A DNA stretch of 64,000 bases from a virus (Duplodnaviria; Caudoviricetes). Where the stretch lies: positions 3,415-67,414 of IMG/VR virus record IMGVR_UViG_3300031229_000003; one strand, given 5' to 3'. The notes beneath the pieces are model-generated. The model saw nothing but the letters and a program-made list of their open reading frames with translations, did not search any database and was not told the origin of the DNA. The stretch's first letter is position 1. Every line of letters starts with the position of its first letter. The position numbers and the translations under genes are program-made. Of the stretch, positions 7,931-62,847 are shown piece after piece.

Positions 7931-8116
7931 TTACGGTTGTGGACGAGGGGCGATTTCCCGGAGAAACCGTTTCCGATCGCGCCCGCAAGGACCGCAGAGC
8001 CCGTTCTCGAGCGCCGCCCGCTCGAAGCAGATGAAACAGGTCGGCGTCGTACGTCGAGCGTCGATCGTTGGGGTGGGGGATGGGGAAGGAGCCGCGAGCC
8101 GGCGGCGTCTAGCCAT
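7931..8116 (-). CDS. small zinc-ribbon protein
   Basis: CFIC...CGPC; start overlaps the methylase stop. Confidence 0.45.
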   Translation of the reverse strand: MARRRRLAAPSPSPTPTIDARRTTPTCFICFERAALENGLCGPCGRDRKRFLREIAPRPQP

Positions 8117-9185
8117 CGAACAGCTCCATCTGCGGGTGGATGCCCCGCGCGACCGCGGCCGGGTTGAACCACAGCGCCTCGGTCCGCATCCCGCTCTCCG
8201 TGTTCGCCTCGAGCGTGCGTCGCTGCCAGCCTCGGGCCTCGTACAAGCTCTCGTAGAGCGGCGACGGGTAGCCGGAGAGCACCACCATGCCGCGCACCCT
8301 CTGAAGCGCCCTGGCGAGCCGCTCGTGATCCTGCGGCCGGTCGAACTCCAGAGCGTAGGCCTTCCGTCGCCAGCGGACCGAACGGACCTCGGCCAGGTAC
8401 GGCGGGTCCACGTAGAACATCGTCTCCGCGCTGTCGTAGCGGCGGATGATATTCAGGCCGTCGTCGCAGTCGATCGCGACGGTGCGCAGCCGCCGCGCGA
8501 CGATCTCGAGGTGGCTCGTGTCGAGGAAGTCCGCCGGCGGAGGCCGGTCCCGGACGTCGTGCTTCCAGACCCGCCAGCCGGTCTTCCACTGCGTGCGGAG
8601 ACCGCCGCGTCCCTGCCAGGCGCGCACGTAGAGACGGCGGGCGATCTCGAGCTCGTCGCCGTCGGCGACCGGCTCGCGGGCAAACTCGAACTCCCGACGC
8701 GCGAAGGGAGTCCGCTCGATGGCCCGGAGCAGGTCCAATGGTCTCTCTCGGAGCACACGGAAAAACGTCACGACGACGTCGTCGAGGTCGTTCACGAACT
8801 CGAACGTCGACGGCGGCTTGCGGAGCAGGACAGAGAGTCCCCCGCCGAACGGCTCGACGTAGCACTTGTGGGCGGGGAAGTGCGCCGCGATCCACGGTGC
8901 GAGCCGCCACTTCGACCCGAAGTAGCGAAGGGGCGGCCGGCCGGGAACCTGGGAGCTCTGGATCCGCTCGAGCCAAGTCCCGGTCGCCTTCTGCCGGTTG
9001 AGCCGGCAGTGCGTCTCCGGCTCGCCGACGAGCCGCTTGACCGCCACGCCCCATAGACAGAGCGGCTCGCCCTGCGCGCGCGGCTCGACGCGGCGGACGG
9101 CGTCGGCGATCGGGCCGGTGGCGTGGAAGCAGCAGCCCTCGCAGTCTCGGGTGAGCTGCTTGACGGTGCCCATCCAGTCCTTCAC
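8109..9185 (-). CDS. dam: DNA adenine methyltransferase (Dam/D12 class) with Cys-containing N-terminal extension
   Basis: LRYFGSKWRL, YVEPFGGGLSV, FVND, FYVDPPY. Confidence 0.92.
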   Translation of the reverse strand: MKDWMGTVKQLTRDCEGCCFHATGPIADAVRRVEPRAQGEPLCLWGVAVKRLVGEPETHCRLNRQKATGTWLERIQSSQVPGRPPLRYFGSKWRLAPWIAAHFPAHKCYVEPFGGGLSVLLRKPPSTFEFVNDLDDVVVTFFRVLRERPLDLLRAIERTPFARREFEFAREPVADGDELEIARRLYVRAWQGRGGLRTQWKTGWRVWKHDVRDRPPPADFLDTSHLEIVARRLRTVAIDCDDGLNIIRRYDSAETMFYVDPPYLAEVRSVRWRRKAYALEFDRPQDHERLARALQRVRGMVVLSGYPSPLYESLYEARGWQRRTLEANTESGMRTEALWFNPAAVARGIHPQMELFDG

Positions 9186-9191
9186 GGGAGC

Positions 9192-9662
9192 TCAGGCGAG
9201 GAGCGGGCCCGGATCACGGAATGCCTGCGGCTCGAGATGCACCAGGCGGGCGTGGAGCCGTTCGGCGACGAGCTCGCCGGCGTCCCGGCGGTGGCAGTGG
9301 CGCGCGGTCTTGCAAGCGCACATGAGGATCGGATGGAGGCCCCGCCCGAGGAAGTTTCTGATCTTCTCGACGCCGAGCTCCGGCGCGACGAGCTTGACCG
9401 GGCCGCCCTTGTAGTTTTCGTTCCCGAACTCGCGAAGGTGGAGGTAGTGGAGGTCGAACGTGCGCTCGAGCCGTGCCCTACGCCAGCGCGGGTCGCGGCT
9501 CGTCGGCTTGTAGCGGATGTCGACGAGCAAGCCGCGGGTGCGCGCGATCGCCTCTCGGATCTCGGCGTCGGACCAGCCGGCCCCGTAGCCGAGGGTGTAG
9601 ATCGTGGGGCGATCGGTGGTGAAGGGCTCGTCGTCGCGGTCGTCGGGCATCGGTGTCTCCAT
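9192..9662 (-). CDS. DUF488-family protein
   Basis: TIYTLGY, LVDIRYKP, LREFGN, LMCAC...CHRR. Confidence 0.8.
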   Translation of the reverse strand: METPMPDDRDDEPFTTDRPTIYTLGYGAGWSDAEIREAIARTRGLLVDIRYKPTSRDPRWRRARLERTFDLHYLHLREFGNENYKGGPVKLVAPELGVEKIRNFLGRGLHPILMCACKTARHCHRRDAGELVAERLHARLVHLEPQAFRDPGPLLA

Positions 9663-23715: not shown

Positions 23716-24237
23716 ATGTCGGAAGAGAGCAAGGAATCCACCCTCGAGCCGATCACCGAGAAGCCCGTGATCCAGCTCATCAAGAGCCTCATCGAGGCCC
23801 ACCATCCGAGCCTGGAGTCAGCGGCGATCGAGGCCTTCTGGATCAAGGGCAAGGCGCTGACCTTCTGGGGGTCGATCGGGACCGCCGAGGAGGTCCTCTG
23901 GTGGCTGTCGAACGCCGATGTCCTCCTGCGGTTCAACCAGGGGCTCTGGGCCAAGCTGTCGGCGGACGGCCGCAAGGGTCTGGTCGACCACTTCCTCTCC
24001 CAGGTGGCCGCGAAGACGGGTGGCGTGACGTCGATGCAGACGTCGCGTGGCGAGCGGCAGCTCTACGAGGTCTTCCGGCCCTCGCTCGCCGTGCACCCGC
24101 AGGTCGTCGCCCGCAACCCGGGGCTCGTCGACGAGATCTCGGAGCTGCGCGAGCTGCAGGCCGCCATGTCGGACCCCGACCAGTTCCTCCTCGACTTCGC
24201 GAAGCGCCAGGACGGCGAGGCGGCCGAGGCGGCGTGA
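23716..24237 (+). CDS. phage putative-metallopeptidase-like protein (degenerate HExxH)
   Basis: GGAGG RBS; W..LS...RKGLVDHFLSQ in place of DHELxH. Confidence 0.6.
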   Translation: MSEESKESTLEPITEKPVIQLIKSLIEAHHPSLESAAIEAFWIKGKALTFWGSIGTAEEVLWWLSNADVLLRFNQGLWAKLSADGRKGLVDHFLSQVAAKTGGVTSMQTSRGERQLYEVFRPSLAVHPQVVARNPGLVDEISELRELQAAMSDPDQFLLDFAKRQDGEAAEAA

Positions 24238-58535: not shown

Positions 58536-59954
58536 CTACGAGACGTGCTCGAGGACGCCGGCGGTGACCTCGTCGCCGTGCAGGCCGTAGCTCACCGCGT
58601 CGAGGCCGTGGTCCGTGTCGCACTTGAGCGGGACCTCGCGGTCGACGGGATCGTGGACCAGGAAGGGGACCGTCTGCCAGAAGTACCAGCAGCGGGTCGA
58701 GACGTAGAGCCCGGGCTCCTCGAAGTTGCCGGCGGCCTTGAGCATCCGCTTGATCTGGAGCATCCGCGGCGCCCGGTAGCCCTTACGGGCCTTGCGCCAG
58801 CGCACGCCCTCGGCCGCGTACTCGTCGGCGATCGAGCCCCTCTTGTGGCCCTCCTGGGCGAAGCAGGCGTCGTCGGCTGGACCCGCGGGCGGGATCGACC
58901 AGCGGCGGGCGAGGCCGTGGATGTAGACGGCGACCTGCGGCACCGTCCAGCCGAACGCCGTCCCGAGATCTCCCTCGCGGTGGCAGACCCACTCGTCGAG
59001 GACGAGCAGCGACCCGGCGGGGTAGAACCGGCCGTCCGGGCCGAGGCTGCCGGGGCTCTTCGCGATGACGTAGCAGGCCGCCGGCGAGGCCGAGCCGTGG
59101 TCGTAGCAGAGCCAGAACTTCCAGCCGGCGGGTGACCAGGAGCCCCATCCGTCGGGCTCGGGCCACTCGAACTTGATGCGCGGGTTGTCGATGACGGCCG
59201 CAAAGTAGGCGCCACGGGCGATCTTCCAGTCCCCCGACGTCCACGCCCGCAGGAGCTCGAGGTCGTTGCCGGCCGCCAGAGCGAGCGTCGTCAGGTAGTC
59301 GGGGCCGTTGAACGGGTTGTCCCGGTAGGTCGACGGGCAGTTGATCCACGTCTTCGCGAACTTGCGGACCTGCCCTGCGAGCAGGACCTCCGTCTCGACC
59401 GTGTAGGGCCGGAACGGCTCGCCGGCGAAGACGTGACGCTGGGCGAGCCACTGGTGACCGATGCCGCCCGGGTTGGCCCCGAGGGTCATCCTCGAGGGGA
59501 TCGGGCCGCGGAGGTTCGAGCTCAAGAGGTCGATCACCAGGGCGCTCATGAACTGCTGAGCCTCGTCGACGTAGATGTCGGTGAAGCTGCGTCCCTGGTA
59601 CGTCTGCTCGTAGTAGCGGCGTCCCTCCTCACCGTCCGGCTGGATGCCGAGCTCGAAGTGGGTCCCGGTCGGGATCGTCCACTGCATCGAGCTCCGGTTG
59701 AGGCTGTGGCGCTTCGGGCCCCAGAACTGGTCGAAGACGCTGTGCAGGACCTCGGTGATGTCCGAGAGCGACTTGTACGGCCCCTTGCGGATGTAGAGGA
59801 TCCGGGCCCGCCGCTGGTAGCGCTCGGCCCGGATGCCGATGCCCTGAGCGAGCCCTACGCTCTTGCCCCCGCCGCGGCCGCCACCCAGGAAGCGGTTCCA
59901 GGGCTCCGGAACCGCGTGCACCAGGCGCTGGAAATCGGTGTACCCGAACCGCAC
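58536..59954 (-). CDS. terL: terminase large subunit
   Basis: GGGRGGGKS, YQGRSFTDIYVDEAQ, GANPGGIGH.W, YDHG, LDEW, DHGLDAVSY; exact start uncertain (GTG 59954). Confidence 0.93.
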   Translation of the reverse strand: MRFGYTDFQRLVHAVPEPWNRFLGGGRGGGKSVGLAQGIGIRAERYQRRARILYIRKGPYKSLSDITEVLHSVFDQFWGPKRHSLNRSSMQWTIPTGTHFELGIQPDGEEGRRYYEQTYQGRSFTDIYVDEAQQFMSALVIDLLSSNLRGPIPSRMTLGANPGGIGHQWLAQRHVFAGEPFRPYTVETEVLLAGQVRKFAKTWINCPSTYRDNPFNGPDYLTTLALAAGNDLELLRAWTSGDWKIARGAYFAAVIDNPRIKFEWPEPDGWGSWSPAGWKFWLCYDHGSASPAACYVIAKSPGSLGPDGRFYPAGSLLVLDEWVCHREGDLGTAFGWTVPQVAVYIHGLARRWSIPPAGPADDACFAQEGHKRGSIADEYAAEGVRWRKARKGYRAPRMLQIKRMLKAAGNFEEPGLYVSTRCWYFWQTVPFLVHDPVDREVPLKCDTDHGLDAVSYGLHGDEVTAGVLEHVS

Positions 59955-59958
59955 AGCA

Positions 59959-60534
59959 TCAGGCGTCCGGCGGCGCCGCGGCGAGGTCCTCGTCGACCGC
60001 CTCGTCGCCGGCGCTGCCCGGCAAGCTCCCGGACCGGCGCATCGCCTCGGTGAGCTGCGTGTAGGCGTCCGCCGGGAGAGCCACCGGCAGGACCAGTGCC
60101 TCCGGCATCTCGCGCGAGCCCTCGGCCGACATGACGCCGGTCGAGCGGAGCACGTCCTCCGCGTCCGCACCCTGGCCCATGACGTTGCGACCGTAGCGGT
60201 TGCGGTTGCGGCGTTCGAGCCTCCACGCGGCCGCCTGCCAGGCCTGCTCGGCTGCGGTGCCGATGATGCTCATGTCTTTCAGTTCGGCTTGAGCGACTGC
60301 TTTTAACATGGCGTCAGAAAATTCTCGGCAGAGCCGTTGCTTCTTGGTGAGCCGAACTCCCTTCTTTGCGTCACGAGCCTTCGCGCCGGTCCGGAGCCAC
60401 TCGTACAGGGTCTCCTTGTGGATTCCCGCGAACGCGGCCGCCGTTTCGATGTAGGCGCCGCCGGCGACGAGCGCCCGAATCTCGTCGATCTTCTGCTGGC
60501 TGATCTTGGGCGGTCGACCGCGTCGCTTCGCCAT
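59959..60534 (-). CDS. terS: terminase small subunit
   Basis: GRPPKI, HTH AAAFAGIHKETLYEWL, WQAAAWRLERR. Confidence 0.85.
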   Translation of the reverse strand: MAKRRGRPPKISQQKIDEIRALVAGGAYIETAAAFAGIHKETLYEWLRTGAKARDAKKGVRLTKKQRLCREFSDAMLKAVAQAELKDMSIIGTAAEQAWQAAAWRLERRNRNRYGRNVMGQGADAEDVLRSTGVMSAEGSREMPEALVLPVALPADAYTQLTEAMRRSGSLPGSAGDEAVDEDLAAAPPDA

Positions 60535-61367
60535 CAGCCGTCGTCCTTTCCGTCCTCCGCCGCGCGGACTTCTGCGAGAGCGACTTCGGTCAGCTTGGCG
60601 ACGGCCGTGCCCCCCGAGAGGATCTTCCGGACCCTGGCGTACTGAGCGCAGGCCGAGACGAACTCCTCGAAGGCCTCGACCGGGGCGACGACCACGAGCT
60701 CCTGCTGGCCGTCGAGGGCTTCGAGAAGCTCCTCGAGCGCCTCGAGCTGGTGAGGCAGGAACGTGAAGGTGATCGTCTTCCACGAGAACTCGGCCCGCGG
60801 CATCAGAAGCGTTCCGCCGTCCCCCTCCGGGGCGGTCAGGAGCGTCTCGTCGGCGCCGCTCGCGATGAGGTCCTCGGGGTTGTCGATCCGTCCGAGAAGC
60901 TCCCGGACCAGGTCCTCGTCGTCGTAGCCCACCAGGAAGTTGTGGGCCAACTGCTTGGCGATCAGCTCAGAGCGAGTCATCTCAGCGCGGTCGACCACCA
61001 CCCAGGCCTCGAGGATCCCGGCGGCGCGCAGCGCGCGGATGCGGTGGTGGCCCGAGACGATCGTGATCAGGCCGTCGCCGGCGGGCTGCGCGCAATACGG
61101 GAACTCGCCCTCGAGGCCACCCCGCTGTTTGATGTTGGCGACCATACGCTCGAACTTCGCCTTCGGCATGACGTGGGCGTTGAGGTCCGACTCCCGGAGC
61201 TCCCCGAGCGGCGCGTGGACGAGCCAGAAGCCGTTGCCGAGGTCGAGCTCGCGGAGCTCCGCGGACGGTGCGGCAGGGGGTTTCGAGCGGGGCACTGCCC
61301 CTTTCTTGGCGCGCTTCGAGGGCGCGGTCTTCTTTTTCACCCGGCCGGCTGTCGATGCTTTCGCCAC
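60534..61367 (-). CDS. ParB/sulfiredoxin-like N-terminal domain protein
   Basis: NAHVM...FERMVANIKQRG...IVSGHHRIRALRAAG; GGAGG RBS before GTG 61367. Confidence 0.8.
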   Translation of the reverse strand: MAKASTAGRVKKKTAPSKRAKKGAVPRSKPPAAPSAELRELDLGNGFWLVHAPLGELRESDLNAHVMPKAKFERMVANIKQRGGLEGEFPYCAQPAGDGLITIVSGHHRIRALRAAGILEAWVVVDRAEMTRSELIAKQLAHNFLVGYDDEDLVRELLGRIDNPEDLIASGADETLLTAPEGDGGTLLMPRAEFSWKTITFTFLPHQLEALEELLEALDGQQELVVVAPVEAFEEFVSACAQYARVRKILSGGTAVAKLTEVALAEVRAAEDGKDDG

Positions 61368-62761
61368 TGCGTCTCCCTCCGTTTCCACTCCTCGAGCGTC
61401 TCGGCCAGGGAGCGATCGAGAAGGTCAGTACCGTAGACCAGCCGCTGTCCGAAGCGGGGGTCGGGGGTGCGCTCCTGGAGCTTCATGATGCCACGGAGGC
61501 CCTTCGCTTCGGGATATGGTGAATACTCCACCGTGACGAGACGTCGGGTCAGGGCCAGCACCCAGGGGTCCATCGCGACTTCGGCCGCGGTCCGCGTGCA
61601 GGCCACCATCGTCACGAGGCGGGTCAACCGGGCATCGTGCGGGGCGCCCACCGAGTAGAACAGGATCAGGGCGTCACGCATGCGGAAGGGCTGGCGGATG
61701 GCCTGGTCCGAGTAGCCGAGAAGCCCGACGAGCTCCCCGTCGAGGAGAACGGCGACGTCGGCGGTGGCCGGGCGCGGGTCGAGCTTGTGGATCCACAGCT
61801 CCTTGTAGTAGGCGGCGTTCTTGCCCTTGATCCGGACGAGGGCGAGCTCCTCGCCGGCTTCGGGGTGGCTCGACGTCGAGATCTGGCGGACGCCGAGGGG
61901 CTCCATCTCGACCGGCTTGCGGGGGATGGCTGAGAGCCCTACGTGGCCGCGCACCGTCTCGGGTCGGTTCGTCCAGATGACCACGAGCTCGTCGCGGGAG
62001 AGGTCCCGAGCGTGGACCACGGTCTTCGCCGCGGCGTGTCCTTTCTTCGCCTGTTGCTGGCAGAGCACCAGGGCTTTCCAGCCGGCCGCGGCCGCCGCGA
62101 GCCGGTACTGGTCGACGGCACCGTCCCAAACCGTGTACGAGGGCGCAGCCCAGGTCAGTCGACCGTCGGTGTCGAAGAACTTCTCGTAAGCCCCCTTGTA
62201 CGTCGGCGGGTTCATGGTGACGATCGTTCGCGGGTCGTCCGCGACAGCCTCGAGGTGTCCCCAGGGATCCGACGAGCGGAACCGGCAGCCGGTGAAGGCG
62301 AGGCGGTTCGCGTCGAGCTTCGAGCGCAGGACCGCCAGGTGCTCTGGCTTGCGCTGGCCGAGGTCCTCGACGATGTCGCCGAAGTAGTCGGTGCCAGAGC
62401 GGCGCTCCATCCGAAGACGGAGCTGCTGGTAGAGGATCTCTGCGCCGTCCGCGAGAGGGTCGCCGGTCAGAGGAAGAGGTGCTCCGTCGACCGCCACCGC
62501 GAGCTCCTCGAGATCGGTGCCCGACACGATCGACCCTATGACGGCGCTGAACAACCAGACGTCGGAGGTCTCGATCTGCTCAGCCGACCAGCCGGCGGCG
62601 AGGTGGACCTTCGGCAGCGCGAAGGCGCCGACGCAAGGCTCGACGATCCGATCGTAGGAGCCCGACTTGCGCAGCTTCTTCGACAGCCGGTAGAGATAGT
62701 CCCGTTCGGGCTTGTCCCAGGTCGAGAGGAACAGGATCGAGGGGGAAGTGAAGCCCGGCAT
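61337..62761 (-). CDS. adenine methyltransferase-like domain fused to a GNAT-like C-terminal domain
   Basis: IVEPCVGAF, SDV, NPPTY; C-terminal VLLDGELVGLLG...RLTRLV...PEAKGLRG. Confidence 0.7.
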   Translation of the reverse strand: MPGFTSPSILFLSTWDKPERDYLYRLSKKLRKSGSYDRIVEPCVGAFALPKVHLAAGWSAEQIETSDVWLFSAVIGSIVSGTDLEELAVAVDGAPLPLTGDPLADGAEILYQQLRLRMERRSGTDYFGDIVEDLGQRKPEHLAVLRSKLDANRLAFTGCRFRSSDPWGHLEAVADDPRTIVTMNPPTYKGAYEKFFDTDGRLTWAAPSYTVWDGAVDQYRLAAAAAGWKALVLCQQQAKKGHAAAKTVVHARDLSRDELVVIWTNRPETVRGHVGLSAIPRKPVEMEPLGVRQISTSSHPEAGEELALVRIKGKNAAYYKELWIHKLDPRPATADVAVLLDGELVGLLGYSDQAIRQPFRMRDALILFYSVGAPHDARLTRLVTMVACTRTAAEVAMDPWVLALTRRLVTVEYSPYPEAKGLRGIMKLQERTPDPRFGQRLVYGTDLLDRSLAETLEEWKRRETQWRKHRQPAG

Positions 62762-62771
62762 GGCGGTTGGG

Positions 62772-62847
62772 TGGACCACCCGCCTGGATTCGAACCAGGG
62801 ACCTCTCAGTACGGAACCGAGTGCTCTATCCGCTGAGCTACGGGCGG
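62772..62847 (-). tRNA. tRNA-Arg (anticodon CCG), encoded CCA
   Basis: 76-nt cloverleaf: CCGCCCG/CGGGTGG, GCTC/GAGC, CTCGG-TTCCGTA-CTGAG, CCTGG-TTCGAAT-CCAGG, then T-CCA. Confidence 0.93.

What the first reader, a model, noticed from the sequence alone, without database searches (positions are those of the whole stretch)
59959..62847. tRNA - methyltransferase/GNAT fusion - ParB - terminase module: possible packaging-linked DNA hypermodification
Seen in sequence: a 474-aa protein with N6-adenine MTase-like motifs (EPCVGAF; NPPTY rather than NPPY/F) and a GNAT-like C-terminal half overlaps a ParB-like gene, which is coupled to terS. A separate canonical Dam is encoded at 8109. Established knowledge: phage Mu Mom is a GNAT-fold enzyme that modifies adenine N6, and ParB-like plus modification genes recur beside phage terminases. 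Inference: this locus may install a non-methyl or two-step adenine modification on DNA as it is packaged. The chemistry is unknown to me.
Basis: partly seen in the sequence, partly recalled or inferred. Interest (0 to 1): 0.7.

Follow-up and report, generated by a model that had tools for sequence, protein, structure and literature searches.

The report
Phage DNA-modifying enzyme with private tRNA
Just ahead of its DNA-packaging genes this phage carries an odd arginine tRNA, a methylase-like/acyltransferase-like fusion enzyme and a ParB-like helper that always travel together, which suggests (untested) that the phage puts tRNA-carried arginine onto its own DNA, much as phage Mu's Mom enzyme does with glycine.

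Summary
On the minus strand lie tRNA-Arg(CCG), a 474-aa protein (Pfam DAM-like-phage1 + GNAT-phage-like; AlphaFold pLDDT 90; best folds E. coli Dam and GNATs including Mom), an overlapping ParB-like gene, then terS, terL and portal.

Comparison makes it a probable component. A same-strand tRNA(-like) gene sits 0-1200 nt upstream of the fusion gene in nearly every lineage, across Actinomycetota and Bacillota phages. The ParB-like gene follows in 101 of 103 loci. tRNA isotype tracks the enzyme clade (Arg; Lys, Pro, Gly-like). In the Arg clade, A20, C35 and G/U36 (ArgRS determinants) are always kept. U33, purine-37, the wobble base and even loop length are not.

Best reading (about 50%): an aminoacyl-tRNA-dependent, ParB-assisted modification of phage DNA, working like Mom but not a Mom family member by sequence.

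Caveats: no chemistry has been shown. The CCG acceptor stem is shared by many phage tRNAs that lack this enzyme. Whether the Dam-like half uses SAM is open.

The scan has already noted the same kit on other genomes (e1-5839119, e1-5324024, e1-5795234). I found no paper describing it.

The parts
62772..62847 (-). tRNA-Arg(CCG), the only tRNA in the window. It has C1-G72, C2-G71, G3.U70, discriminator U73 and an encoded CCA. The anticodon loop is UUCCGUA (U37 instead of a purine). G18G19A20 and C35G36 are kept. Proposed private aminoacyl donor.
   Evidence: ARAGORN. The covariance model R1 scores it 85.7 bits. Sequence. A homologous element sits upstream of the fusion gene in nearly all lineages.
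61337..62761 (-). 474-aa fusion protein: Dam-like Rossmann/TRD half (about residues 8-270) plus GNAT-fold half (about residues 300-450).
   Evidence: Pfam PF22555 and PF22559. AF2 pLDDT 90. Foldseek and VIA give Dam, DpnM and T4 Dam for the N-half, and GNATs and Mom for the C-half.
62621..62641 (-). EPCVGAF (residues 41-47): the motif-I-like loop of the Dam-like half. E41 and G45 are invariant across both deep clades.
   Evidence: Alignments A1 and the cross-clade alignment. hhalign places it on the EPFGGG of the window's own Dam, although the score is not significant.
62198..62212 (-). NPPTY (residues 184-188): a motif-IV-like site with one extra residue. PP(T/S)Y is invariant. The N is A or C in whole subclades. 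Inteins are inserted right after NPPTYK in at least 10 relatives.
61352..61864 (-). GNAT-fold half (residues 300-470). It carries the family signature TVE..(P)E.K(G/E)xRG and R-L-x-R-L where GNATs normally have the acetyl-CoA loop Q/RxxGxG/A.
   Evidence: PF22559. VIA Z 10.1 to GNATs and 9.8 to Mom 8bv8. Alignment.
60534..61388 (-). ParB-like protein (284 aa): ParB/Srx nucleotide-binding domain with SGHHR in place of GERR, plus a helical C-terminal part. Obligate partner of the fusion gene.
   Evidence: phrog_7405. The A3 profile hits ParB N-domains in the PDB (7bnr, E 8e-8). Foldseek gives KorB, ParB and Noc. It lies immediately downstream in 101 of 103 loci.
59959..60534 (-). Small terminase subunit, translationally coupled to the ParB-like gene (TGATG).
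   Evidence: phrog_4102, E 1e-28. Junction read.
58536..60170 (-). Large terminase subunit. These are the longest-ORF coordinates; the true start is probably near the terS stop.
   Evidence: Pfam Terminase_3 and phrog_2.
9192..9662 (-). DUF488 protein, 6 nt upstream of the canonical Dam and inside the replication module. In most relatives a DUF488-like gene sits directly upstream of the tRNA. Here it lies elsewhere, so its membership of the system is uncertain.
   Evidence: PF04343, E 1.6e-8. DUF488-like ORFs lie upstream of the tRNA in about 10 other lineages and in ValentiniPuff. Context.
8109..9185 (-). Canonical D12-class Dam methyltransferase (EPFGGG, DPPY). It is separate from the fusion enzyme.
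   Evidence: PF02086, E 1e-16. ORF.

Best explanation
The cassette tRNA - Dam-like/GNAT fusion - ParB-like is a phage DNA hypermodification system that works like phage Mu Mom. The proposed steps are as follows. The phage tRNA is matured and charged by the host ArgRS. Its ArgRS determinants are kept, while the features needed on the ribosome are not. The GNAT half takes the aminoacyl group from the 3' end of this tRNA. The Dam-like half binds dsDNA and flips out the target base, most likely adenine, presenting N6 at the PP(T)Y pocket. The ParB-like protein activates or loads the enzyme on dsDNA. The product would be an arginine-derived adduct on phage DNA that blocks host nucleases. Sister clades use Lys-, Pro- or Gly-type tRNAs. 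What is shown: the folds, the motif conservation, and the strict gene linkage of tRNA, fusion and ParB-like. What is inferred: the tRNA as donor, DNA adenine as acceptor, arginine as the transferred group, and any role of SAM.
For: (1) Folds. The N-half's best matches are the DNA adenine methyltransferases EcoDam (Z 12.9), DpnM (12.0) and T4 Dam (11.2). The C-half matches GNATs (10.1) and Mom 8bv8 (9.8). Mom-family clusters are the nearest named neighbours of the C-half in the ESM Atlas; this is a lead only. (2) Precedent for the donor. Mom, a GNAT, transfers glycine from Gly-tRNA to adenine N6 in dsDNA (PMC13219725). (3) Linkage. A same-strand tRNA(-like) gene lies 0-1200 nt upstream in 47 of 57 sources searched, and in 12 of 14 protein clusters at 70% identity with strong scores. 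The same holds in 20 prophage loci, 10 diverse metagenome loci, and the cultured phages FP_Brigit and ValentiniPuff. In ValentiniPuff the tRNA lies at the right genome end, behind a terminator-like hairpin, while the fusion gene is gene 1 at the left end. The tRNA therefore cannot be a mere mRNA leader there. (4) Isotype follows the enzyme clade. (5) In about 21 distinct Arg-clade anticodon loops, C35 plus G/U36 and G18G19A20 are always present. Position 33 is U, C, G or A; position 37 is A, C or U; position 34 takes all four bases; and 6-nt loops occur, including in a cultured phage. This is selection for charging, not for decoding. (6) CGG makes up 34% of Arg codons here, so no rare codon needs a supplement. 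(7) The GNAT half lacks the acetyl-CoA loop signature. (8) The ParB-like partner is obligate (101 of 103 loci), and phage ParB homologues are proven activators of a cognate DNA base-modifying enzyme on dsDNA (PMC13229309). (9) Inteins sit in the NPPTYK/G motif in at least 10 relatives, which marks it as an essential site.
Against: No modified base, enzyme activity or tRNA charging has been measured. The GNAT half has no detectable sequence similarity to Mom (hhalign probability 0.5%; no PF25680 hit). The structural match to Mom ties with generic GNATs. The CCG/CGG acceptor stem is not private: of 47 distinct phage tRNAs with that stem and at least 2.5 kb of downstream sequence, only 5 are followed by the fusion gene. 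Shared inheritance of the block inflates the apparent number of independent associations. The N/D of the (N/D)PPY motif is A or C in whole subclades, and the motif carries an extra residue, so adenine N6 as the target is uncertain. The tRNA-like elements in the Oscillospiraceae clade are very degenerate (about 25 bits). SAM-related neighbours in some relatives (PNP_UDP_1, MetK) hint that ordinary SAM chemistry may be part or all of the story.
Confidence: 0.5

Rival explanations
1. This is a two-step modification without tRNA. The Dam-like half methylates adenine with SAM (or transfers another SAM-derived group), and the GNAT half adds an acyl group from an acyl-CoA. The tRNA is an ordinary phage tRNA that sits at the head of the late operon and is inherited with the block.
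For: E41, G45 and D67 (the positions that hold SAM in Dam-type enzymes) are invariant. A PNP_UDP_1 (MTA/SAH-nucleosidase superfamily) gene lies next to the fusion gene in two clades, and FP_Brigit carries a SAM synthetase. Phage tRNAs with the same acceptor stem are common without the fusion gene.
Against: The acetyl-CoA loop motif is absent. The N-terminal KWAGGK-type motif of Dam is absent, and the N of NPPTY is not conserved. A decoding tRNA would keep U33, a purine at 37 and a 7-nt loop, and these are lost, while the ArgRS determinants are kept. The tRNA is retained in two phyla with very different codon usage.
Confidence: 0.2
2. The enzyme aminoacylates a protein rather than DNA, like ATE1 or L/F-transferase. 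For example, it might arginylate a phage or host protein, with the NPPTY pocket holding a side-chain amide or amine as in HemK/PrmC.
For: tRNA-dependent GNAT-fold protein transferases exist (listed in PMC13219725). HemK/Mtq2-type protein methyltransferases are among the fold matches (Z 9.6-10.0).
Against: DNA adenine methyltransferases, including their DNA-binding insert, match best (197-210 residues aligned, Z 12-13). The obligate ParB-like partner and the terminase context point to DNA.
Confidence: 0.1
3. The tRNA is the substrate, not the donor. The fusion enzyme methylates and/or acetylates the phage tRNA or its aminoacyl group, as TacT/AtaT-type GNATs and RNA m6A methyltransferases do.
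For: GNAT toxins acetylate aminoacyl-tRNA (PMC9177977, listed). RlmJ and METTL16 appear among the fold matches (Z 9.3-10.6). Gene adjacency alone cannot tell donor from substrate.
Against: This does not explain the obligate ParB-like partner or the terminase linkage. The anticodon arm, the usual target of tRNA modification, is hypervariable. The best fold matches are DNA enzymes.
Confidence: 0.08
4. The tRNA-like element is only a cis-acting processing or stability signal (RNase P/Z punctuation that yields a leaderless mRNA). The two proteins have some other packaging-related role.
For: The tRNA ends 0-10 nt before the start codon in the window, L003 and the 47-member gut cluster, leaving no room for a ribosome-binding site. 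The anticodon arm drifts while the acceptor, D and T arms, which RNase P/Z read, are conserved.
Against: The ArgRS determinants (A20, C35, G/U36) would not be conserved. In many lineages the tRNA is 100-1200 nt away with genes in between. In ValentiniPuff a terminator-like hairpin and the genome end separate it from the fusion gene.
Confidence: 0.07

Closest known systems
Bacteriophage Mu Mom (Pfam PF25680; PDB 8bv8; Silva et al. 2026, PMC13219725)
   Same: It is a GNAT-fold phage enzyme. It lacks the canonical acetyl-CoA loop. It uses aminoacyl-tRNA as the acyl donor to modify adenine N6 in dsDNA after replication. It matches the C-half structurally (Z 9.8, 142 residues).
   Different: There is no detectable sequence similarity (hhalign probability 0.5%). 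Mom is a stand-alone dimer with an HTH-like insertion and uses host Gly-tRNA. Here the GNAT is fused to a Dam-like domain, comes with its own non-decoding tRNA (Arg type in this window), and needs a ParB-like neighbour. No activity has been shown.
ParB-dependent phage thymine dioxygenases (5mYOX176/ParB176; PMC13229309) and the 'ParB-terminase large subunit loci' of Iyer/Aravind (described in PMC4738411)
   Same: A phage ParB homologue (nucleotide-binding domain plus a C-terminal part) is encoded next to a post-replicative DNA base-modifying enzyme, often beside the terminase genes. In that system the ParB is required for activity on dsDNA.
   Different: The partnered enzyme here is a Dam-like/GNAT fusion, not a dioxygenase or a plain methylase. 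ParB dependence is inferred only from linkage in 101 of 103 loci.
D12-class DNA adenine methyltransferases (E. coli Dam, DpnM, T4 Dam; PF02086)
   Same: Best structural match to the N-half, including the inserted helical domain. Motif-I-like EPxxG, an acidic residue after strand 2, and PPxY after strand 4.
   Different: No Pfam PF02086 hit. The motif is NPPTY, APPTY or CPPTY instead of DPPY. The N-terminal KWAGGK motif is missing. A true Dam is encoded elsewhere in the same phage.
Non-proteinogenic tRNA-Gly of staphylococci used by FemXAB transferases (own knowledge; FemX is cited in PMC13219725)
   Same: A dedicated tRNA that is charged by the normal synthetase but is poorly suited to the ribosome, and that feeds a GNAT-fold aminoacyl transferase.
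   Different: That is a cellular system acting on peptidoglycan precursors. Here the system is phage-encoded, the presumed target is DNA, and the charging and non-decoding status are inferred from sequence only.

Membership tests
Pfam PF22555 DAM-like-phage1 + PF22559 GNAT-phage-like (uncharacterised phage fusion family; phrog_7858) | Significant match to both profiles in one polypeptide. | tested here: met
   E 5.7e-51 and 4.8e-34, both far above the gathering score. phrog_7858 E 3e-67. All 37 homologues carry both domains.
D12-class N6-adenine DNA methyltransferase (Dam, PF02086) | Rossmann methyltransferase fold with a Dam-type inserted DNA-binding domain. | tested here: met
   VIA Z 12.9 to 2ore (197 aligned), 12.0 to 2dpm, 11.2 to 1q0s. 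Foldseek E 8e-5.
D12-class N6-adenine DNA methyltransferase (Dam, PF02086) | Catalytic motif IV, (D/N)PP(Y/F/W). | tested here: not met
   The window has NPPTY, with one extra residue. Whole subclades have APPTY or CPPTY. Only PP(T/S)Y is invariant.
D12-class N6-adenine DNA methyltransferase (Dam, PF02086) | Sequence-profile membership and the N-terminal KWAGGK-type motif. | tested here: not met
   No PF02086 hit at E 0.1. hhalign to the window's own Dam gives probability 0.5%. The N-terminal region is not conserved between clades.
D12-class N6-adenine DNA methyltransferase (Dam, PF02086) | SAM binding and methyl transfer. | not testable with these tools
   E41, G45 and D67 are invariant, which is compatible with binding an adenosine-containing ligand. 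No ligand modelling was available.
GNAT superfamily | GNAT fold (a beta sheet with the beta4/beta5 splay). | tested here: met
   VIA Z 9-10 to many GNATs over residues 301-449. Foldseek E 6e-4.
GNAT superfamily | Acetyl-CoA pyrophosphate-binding loop Q/R-x-x-G-x-G/A after beta4. | tested here: not met
   That position reads R-L-T-R-L (clade B) or R-L-G/N-R-L (clade A), without the glycine pattern. This was read from the alignment, not from a superposition.
Mom family (PF25680) | Sequence-profile membership. | tested here: not met
   No PF25680 hit at E 0.1. hhalign of A1 against Mu Mom gives probability 0.5%.
Mom family (PF25680) | Essential residues R111, S124, D149 and R151, and the HTH-like insertion. 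| tested here: inconclusive
   Only residue ranges of the structural alignment are returned, so equivalents could not be mapped. The family has its own invariant R378, T410, E412, E418, K420 and R423.
Mom family (PF25680) | Aminoacyl-tRNA as co-substrate and dsDNA adenine as substrate. | not testable with these tools
   Supported only indirectly, by the conserved private tRNA.
ParB/Srx (ParB-CTPase fold) - the 284-aa neighbour | N-terminal nucleotide-binding domain with the GxxR arginine patch. | tested here: met
   The A3 profile hits ParB 7bnr at E 8e-8, with SGHHR aligned to GERR. Foldseek gives KorB, ParB and Noc at E 6e-6 to 1e-4. Pfam PF02195 itself gave no hit at E 0.1.
ParB/Srx (ParB-CTPase fold) - the 284-aa neighbour | Central HTH DNA-binding domain and parS binding, as in chromosomal ParB. 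| tested here: inconclusive
   The sequence match covers only profile positions 33-107. The model has helices after the nucleotide-binding domain, but pLDDT is 40-85 there. The activator ParBs of PMC13229309 also lack this domain.
Elongator tRNA-Arg | Cloverleaf with canonical T-loop and G18G19, plus the ArgRS determinants A20, C35 and G/U36. | tested here: met
   ARAGORN call. Sequence. Conserved across the Arg clade.
Elongator tRNA-Arg | Decoding features: U33, purine 37, 7-nt loop; usual bacterial G1-C72. | tested here: not met
   The window tRNA has U33 but U37, together with C1-G72 and G3.U70. Relatives have C, G or A at position 33, C or U at position 37, and 6-nt loops.

The most novel reading that the evidence does not exclude
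Phages of at least two bacterial phyla carry a family of 'programmable' DNA aminoacylation systems. A private tRNA that cannot decode is charged by the host synthetase. Its amino acid (Arg here; Lys, Pro or Gly in sister clades) is written onto phage DNA bases by a Dam-like/GNAT fusion with the help of a ParB-like protein. This would yield several previously unseen amino-acid-derived DNA hypermodifications.
Probability: 0.4. Interest if true: 0.9.

Novelty: new variant of a known kind. Interest (0 to 1): 0.78.

Why it matters
tRNA-dependent DNA hypermodification is known from a single enzyme, Mom, with a single amino acid, glycine. If this cassette works as inferred, the principle extends to a large family: about 1300 representative clusters, spread across soil Actinomycetota and gut Bacillota phages. 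That family is unrelated to Mom in sequence, supplies its own non-translational tRNA, and apparently switches amino acid by switching anticodon. This would add new DNA chemistries of interest for restriction evasion and for enzymatic DNA labelling. It would be a second case of ParB-assisted base modification. It would also give phage tRNA genes a function that has nothing to do with codon usage. Two cultured phages carry the cassette (Microbacterium phage ValentiniPuff and Faecalibacterium phage FP_Brigit), so the idea can be tested directly.

Tried and rejected
(1) Sequence-level links. A profile search of the PDB with A1 found nothing. hhalign of A1 against the window's Dam and against Mu Mom gave probability 0.5% each. 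Only fold-level similarity exists.

(2) I first read the invariant C1-G72/C2-G71/G3-C70 acceptor stem as a private identity mark read by the enzyme. A reciprocal scan of IMG/VR refuted that. At least 119 loci (67 distinct tRNAs: Arg, Ile, Lys, Val, Met, Gln) share the stem. Of 47 distinct ones with at least 2.5 kb of downstream sequence, only 5 are followed by the fusion gene.

(3) tRNA as a prophage attachment site: rejected. It is a complete gene inside an operon, 13 nt after the stop of an upstream phage ORF, with no promoter or terminator match nearby. It also occurs in the cultured phages ValentiniPuff and FP_Brigit and in viral contigs.

(4) tRNA as a rare-codon supplement: unlikely here, because CGG is 34% of Arg codons in seven genes.

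(5) G3.U70 (the alanine determinant noted in e1-5989197) as a family trait: it occurs only in the window and in its nearest relative L002.

(7) Iyer et al. 2013 (NAR), the source of the ParB-terminase locus concept, is not held. It is cited only through PMC4738411.

(8) No paper mentions PF22555 or PF22559.

(9) The 120-aa and 121-aa ORFs upstream of the tRNA have no Pfam match and no homologue in the other loci.


Full report
WHAT IS THERE. The window is positions 3415-67414 of a 67.4-kb linear IMG/VR virus record, about 88% complete, with 70% G+C. At its right end, on the minus strand, the elements lie in this order:
- two small coupled ORFs of unknown function
- tRNA-Arg(CCG), 62772-62847, the only tRNA in the window
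- a 474-aa ORF, 61337-62761, whose ATG lies 10 nt after the tRNA's CCA
- a 284-aa ParB-like ORF, 60534-61388, overlapping the previous gene by 52 nt
- terS, whose ATG overlaps the ParB-like TGA (TGATG)
- terL and portal

A canonical Dam (PF02086, DPPY) lies at 8109-9185.

THE FUSION PROTEIN. Pfam already holds both halves as uncharacterised phage families. They are PF22555 'DAM-like-phage1' (E 6e-51) and PF22559 'GNAT-phage-like' (E 5e-34); PHROGs lists the protein as phrog_7858, function unknown. I found no paper that mentions these families.

An AlphaFold2 model built on 32 homologues has pLDDT 90. Its N-half matches E. coli Dam (VIA Z 12.9, 197 residues aligned), DpnM (12.0) and T4 Dam (11.2). 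Its C-half matches GNATs (Z up to 10.1) and the Mom crystal structure 8bv8 (Z 9.8). At sequence level there is no significant similarity to any solved structure, to the window's own Dam, or to Mom.

Across both deep clades of the family the invariant residues of the N-half are E41, G45, D67 and PP(T/S)Y, followed by xxG.(Y/F)E(K/R)(F/W)(F/Y)DT. The N of NPPTY is replaced by A or C in whole subclades, and the Dam N-terminal motif is missing. At least ten representative homologues carry an intein inserted exactly between NPPTYK and (G/S)AYEKFF. Inteins typically sit in essential active-site motifs, so this one is likely essential too. The GNAT half lacks the Q/RxxGxG/A acetyl-CoA loop and has its own signature, T-V-E...P-E-x-K-(G/E)-x-R-G.

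The N-half is therefore Dam-like in fold but fails two defining Dam features. The C-half is a GNAT that probably does not use acetyl-CoA.

THE PARTNER. The 284-aa protein gave no Pfam ParBc hit. A profile of 24 homologues, however, matches the CTP-binding N-domain of ParB (7bnr, E 8e-8), with SGHHR aligned to the GERR box. Its model matches KorB, ParB and Noc.

A homologue lies immediately downstream of the fusion gene in 101 of 103 loci examined. A large terminase of varying Pfam family follows in 7 of 10 representatives tested, and in both cultured phages that carry the cassette. This fits the 'ParB-terminase locus' of Iyer and Aravind, whose enzymes were predicted to modify phage DNA (PMC4738411). 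It also fits a 2026 experimental paper showing that phage ParB homologues are required activators of a cognate thymine dioxygenase on dsDNA (PMC13229309).

THE tRNA IS PART OF THE CASSETTE. The trigger for looking at the tRNA was the 2026 finding that Mom, a GNAT, transfers glycine from Gly-tRNA to adenine N6 of dsDNA (PMC13219725).

ARAGORN, Rfam and a covariance model built here (R1) find a tRNA or tRNA-like gene on the same strand, 0-1200 nt upstream of the fusion gene, in these sets:
- 47 of 57 sources searched
- 12 of the 14 protein clusters (70% identity) from IMG/VR, with strong scores
- Streptomyces, Planotetraspora, Oscillospiraceae and Lachnospiraceae prophages
- ten further diverse metagenome loci
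- Faecalibacterium phage FP_Brigit

In Microbacterium phage ValentiniPuff the fusion gene is gene 1, at nt 10 of the genome. An unannotated tRNA (67 bits) lies about 90 nt from the right end, after a DUF488 gene and before a terminator-like hairpin. The pair is thus adjacent on the circular or concatemeric genome. The tRNA cannot simply be the leader of the fusion mRNA there.

The maximum-likelihood tree of the enzyme has two deep clades. Clade B holds the Actinomycetota prophages, ValentiniPuff and uncultured viral contigs of unassigned host, including the window; its tRNAs are of Arg type throughout. Clade A holds the Bacillota prophages and Faecalibacterium phage FP_Brigit; it has subclades with Pro-type, Lys-type and degenerate Gly-like tRNAs.

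WHAT THE tRNA SEQUENCES SAY. The acceptor, D and T arms are canonical and conserved. In about 21 distinct Arg-clade anticodon loops the pattern is as follows:
- Always present: C35 followed by G or U, and G18G19A20. By established knowledge these are the ArgRS identity elements.
- Not conserved: position 33 (normally a universal U) is U, C, G or A. Position 37 is A, C or U. The wobble base takes all four values (TCG, CCG, ACG, GCG, TCT). Several loops have 6 nt, including that of the cultured phage ValentiniPuff.

Among near-identical tRNAs, the anticodon stem is replaced with compensatory changes while the rest of the molecule is unchanged. The window's own tRNA has U33, but also U37, C1-G72, G3.U70 and U73.

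This pattern is what selection for 'can be charged with arginine' would give. It is not what selection for 'can read a given codon' would give. It also argues against a pure processing-signal role. CGG is 34% of Arg codons in the window's genes, so no rare codon needs help.

A CORRECTION TO MY OWN FIRST READING. The invariant C1C2G3...G71G72 acceptor stem looked like a private identity mark. A reciprocal scan of IMG/VR for tRNAs with this stem returned at least 119 loci and 67 distinct tRNAs (Arg, Ile, Lys, Val, Met, Gln). Most of these have canonical anticodon loops. Of 47 distinct ones with at least 2.5 kb of downstream sequence, only 5 are followed by the fusion gene. The stem is therefore a trait of a wider phage tRNA family. 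The enzyme nearly always has such a tRNA, but such tRNAs mostly lack the enzyme.

OTHER PARTS. Earlier notes of this scan describe the same kit on other genomes, with a DUF488 gene as a fourth member. I tested this.
- The ORF directly upstream of the tRNA gives DUF488 or DUF488-N3a hits in about ten lineages. Most of these are below Pfam's threshold. The ValentiniPuff hit is clearly above it.
- In this window the ORF upstream of the tRNA has no match.
- The phage's DUF488 (PF04343, E 1.6e-8) sits at 9192-9662, 6 nt upstream of the canonical Dam, in the replication module. Its closest homologue is in L002, 1.7 kb upstream of that locus's tRNA.

Some relatives carry SAM-related genes beside the cassette. 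A PNP_UDP_1 (MTA/SAH-nucleosidase superfamily) gene occurs in the Oscillospiraceae clade and in L071, and FP_Brigit has a SAM synthetase. SAM chemistry by the Dam-like half therefore remains possible.

MOST LIKELY MECHANISM (about 0.5). The host ArgRS charges the private, non-decoding tRNA. The GNAT half takes the arginyl group. The Dam-like half binds dsDNA and flips the target base, most likely adenine. The ParB-like protein activates or loads the enzyme. The result would be an arginine-derived adduct on phage DNA, possibly rearranged as in Mom; that last point is speculation.

Shown here: the folds, the motifs and the linkage. Inferred: the donor, the acceptor, the amino acid, any SAM step, and the timing relative to packaging.

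Rivals:
- SAM/acyl-CoA chemistry with a hitch-hiking tRNA (0.2)
- protein aminoacylation (0.1)
- the tRNA as substrate (0.08)
- the tRNA as a cis-acting processing element only (0.07)

COMPARISON AND NOVELTY. The system works like Mom but is not a Mom family member: the sequence test was not met. It is Dam-like in fold but not a Dam: motif IV and profile membership were not met. Its partner is a ParB-fold protein of the activator kind. The literature searched holds no description of this fusion, of its tRNA, or of arginine-type DNA aminoacylation. The scan itself has flagged the same kit several times on other DNA. I class it as a new variant of a known kind. It is untested, but directly testable in two cultured phages.

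Noticed in passing
IMG/VR loci L104-L222: A large family of phage or prophage tRNAs (Arg-TCG, Arg-TCT, Ile-TAT, Lys-TTT, Lys-CTT, Val, Met, Gln) shares the unusual acceptor stem 5'-CCGC...GCGG-3' (C1-G72) whatever the anticodon. This looks like one phage tRNA lineage that switches isotype by anticodon change. Most members are not near the fusion gene.
   Followed up: partly
L004-L045 cluster (human-gut contigs of about 31 kb) and Streptomyces prophages L066-L100: Among otherwise identical tRNAs the 5-bp anticodon stem is swapped wholesale with compensatory changes (for example CCCAA/TTGGG against CCTTG/CAGGG). This suggests diversifying selection or recombination focused on the anticodon arm.
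   Followed up: partly
MH825712 (ValentiniPuff) 62354-62428 = L304:2855-2929: An unannotated tRNA with a 6-nt anticodon loop (CUCGUU) lies at the extreme right end of a cultured phage genome. A DUF488 gene (gp112) precedes it and a terminator-like hairpin follows.
   Followed up: yes
P0014, P0021, P0027, P0044, P0047, P0048, P0063, P0091, P0097, P0167: Inteins (some with a LAGLIDADG domain) are inserted at one and the same site, between NPPTYK and (G/S)AYEKFF of the Dam-like domain.
   Followed up: partly
L067:8131-9342: A second DAM-like-phage1 protein (404 aa, no GNAT domain) is encoded directly after the ParB-like gene in one lineage.
   Followed up: no
L046:5049-5915, L071:5097-5789; NC_047909 gp17: PNP_UDP_1 (nucleoside phosphorylase / MTA-SAH nucleosidase superfamily) genes lie next to the cassette in two clades. 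FP_Brigit has a methionine adenosyltransferase 1.6 kb upstream of the tRNA.
   Followed up: no
ESM Atlas clusters: A related architecture exists in phages: Amidoligase_2 + DAM-like-phage2 (PF22556) + GNAT-phage-like, about 690 aa, 62 members. Stand-alone GNAT-phage-like proteins of about 194 aa also exist.
   Followed up: no
window 62772-62847 and L002:5892-5969: Only these two sister tRNAs carry G3.U70, the main AlaRS determinant, on an otherwise Arg-type tRNA. Dual Arg/Ala charging cannot be excluded.
   Followed up: partly
window 23878-23965 (-): Weak match to the tRNA covariance model R1 (23 bits, E 0.024).
   Followed up: no
L085:2960-3183, L058:548-797, L092:125-272: In the Oscillospiraceae clade, two or three tandem, very degenerate tRNA-like elements (22-28 bits each) replace the single tRNA, about 0.8-1 kb upstream of the fusion gene.
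   Followed up: partly
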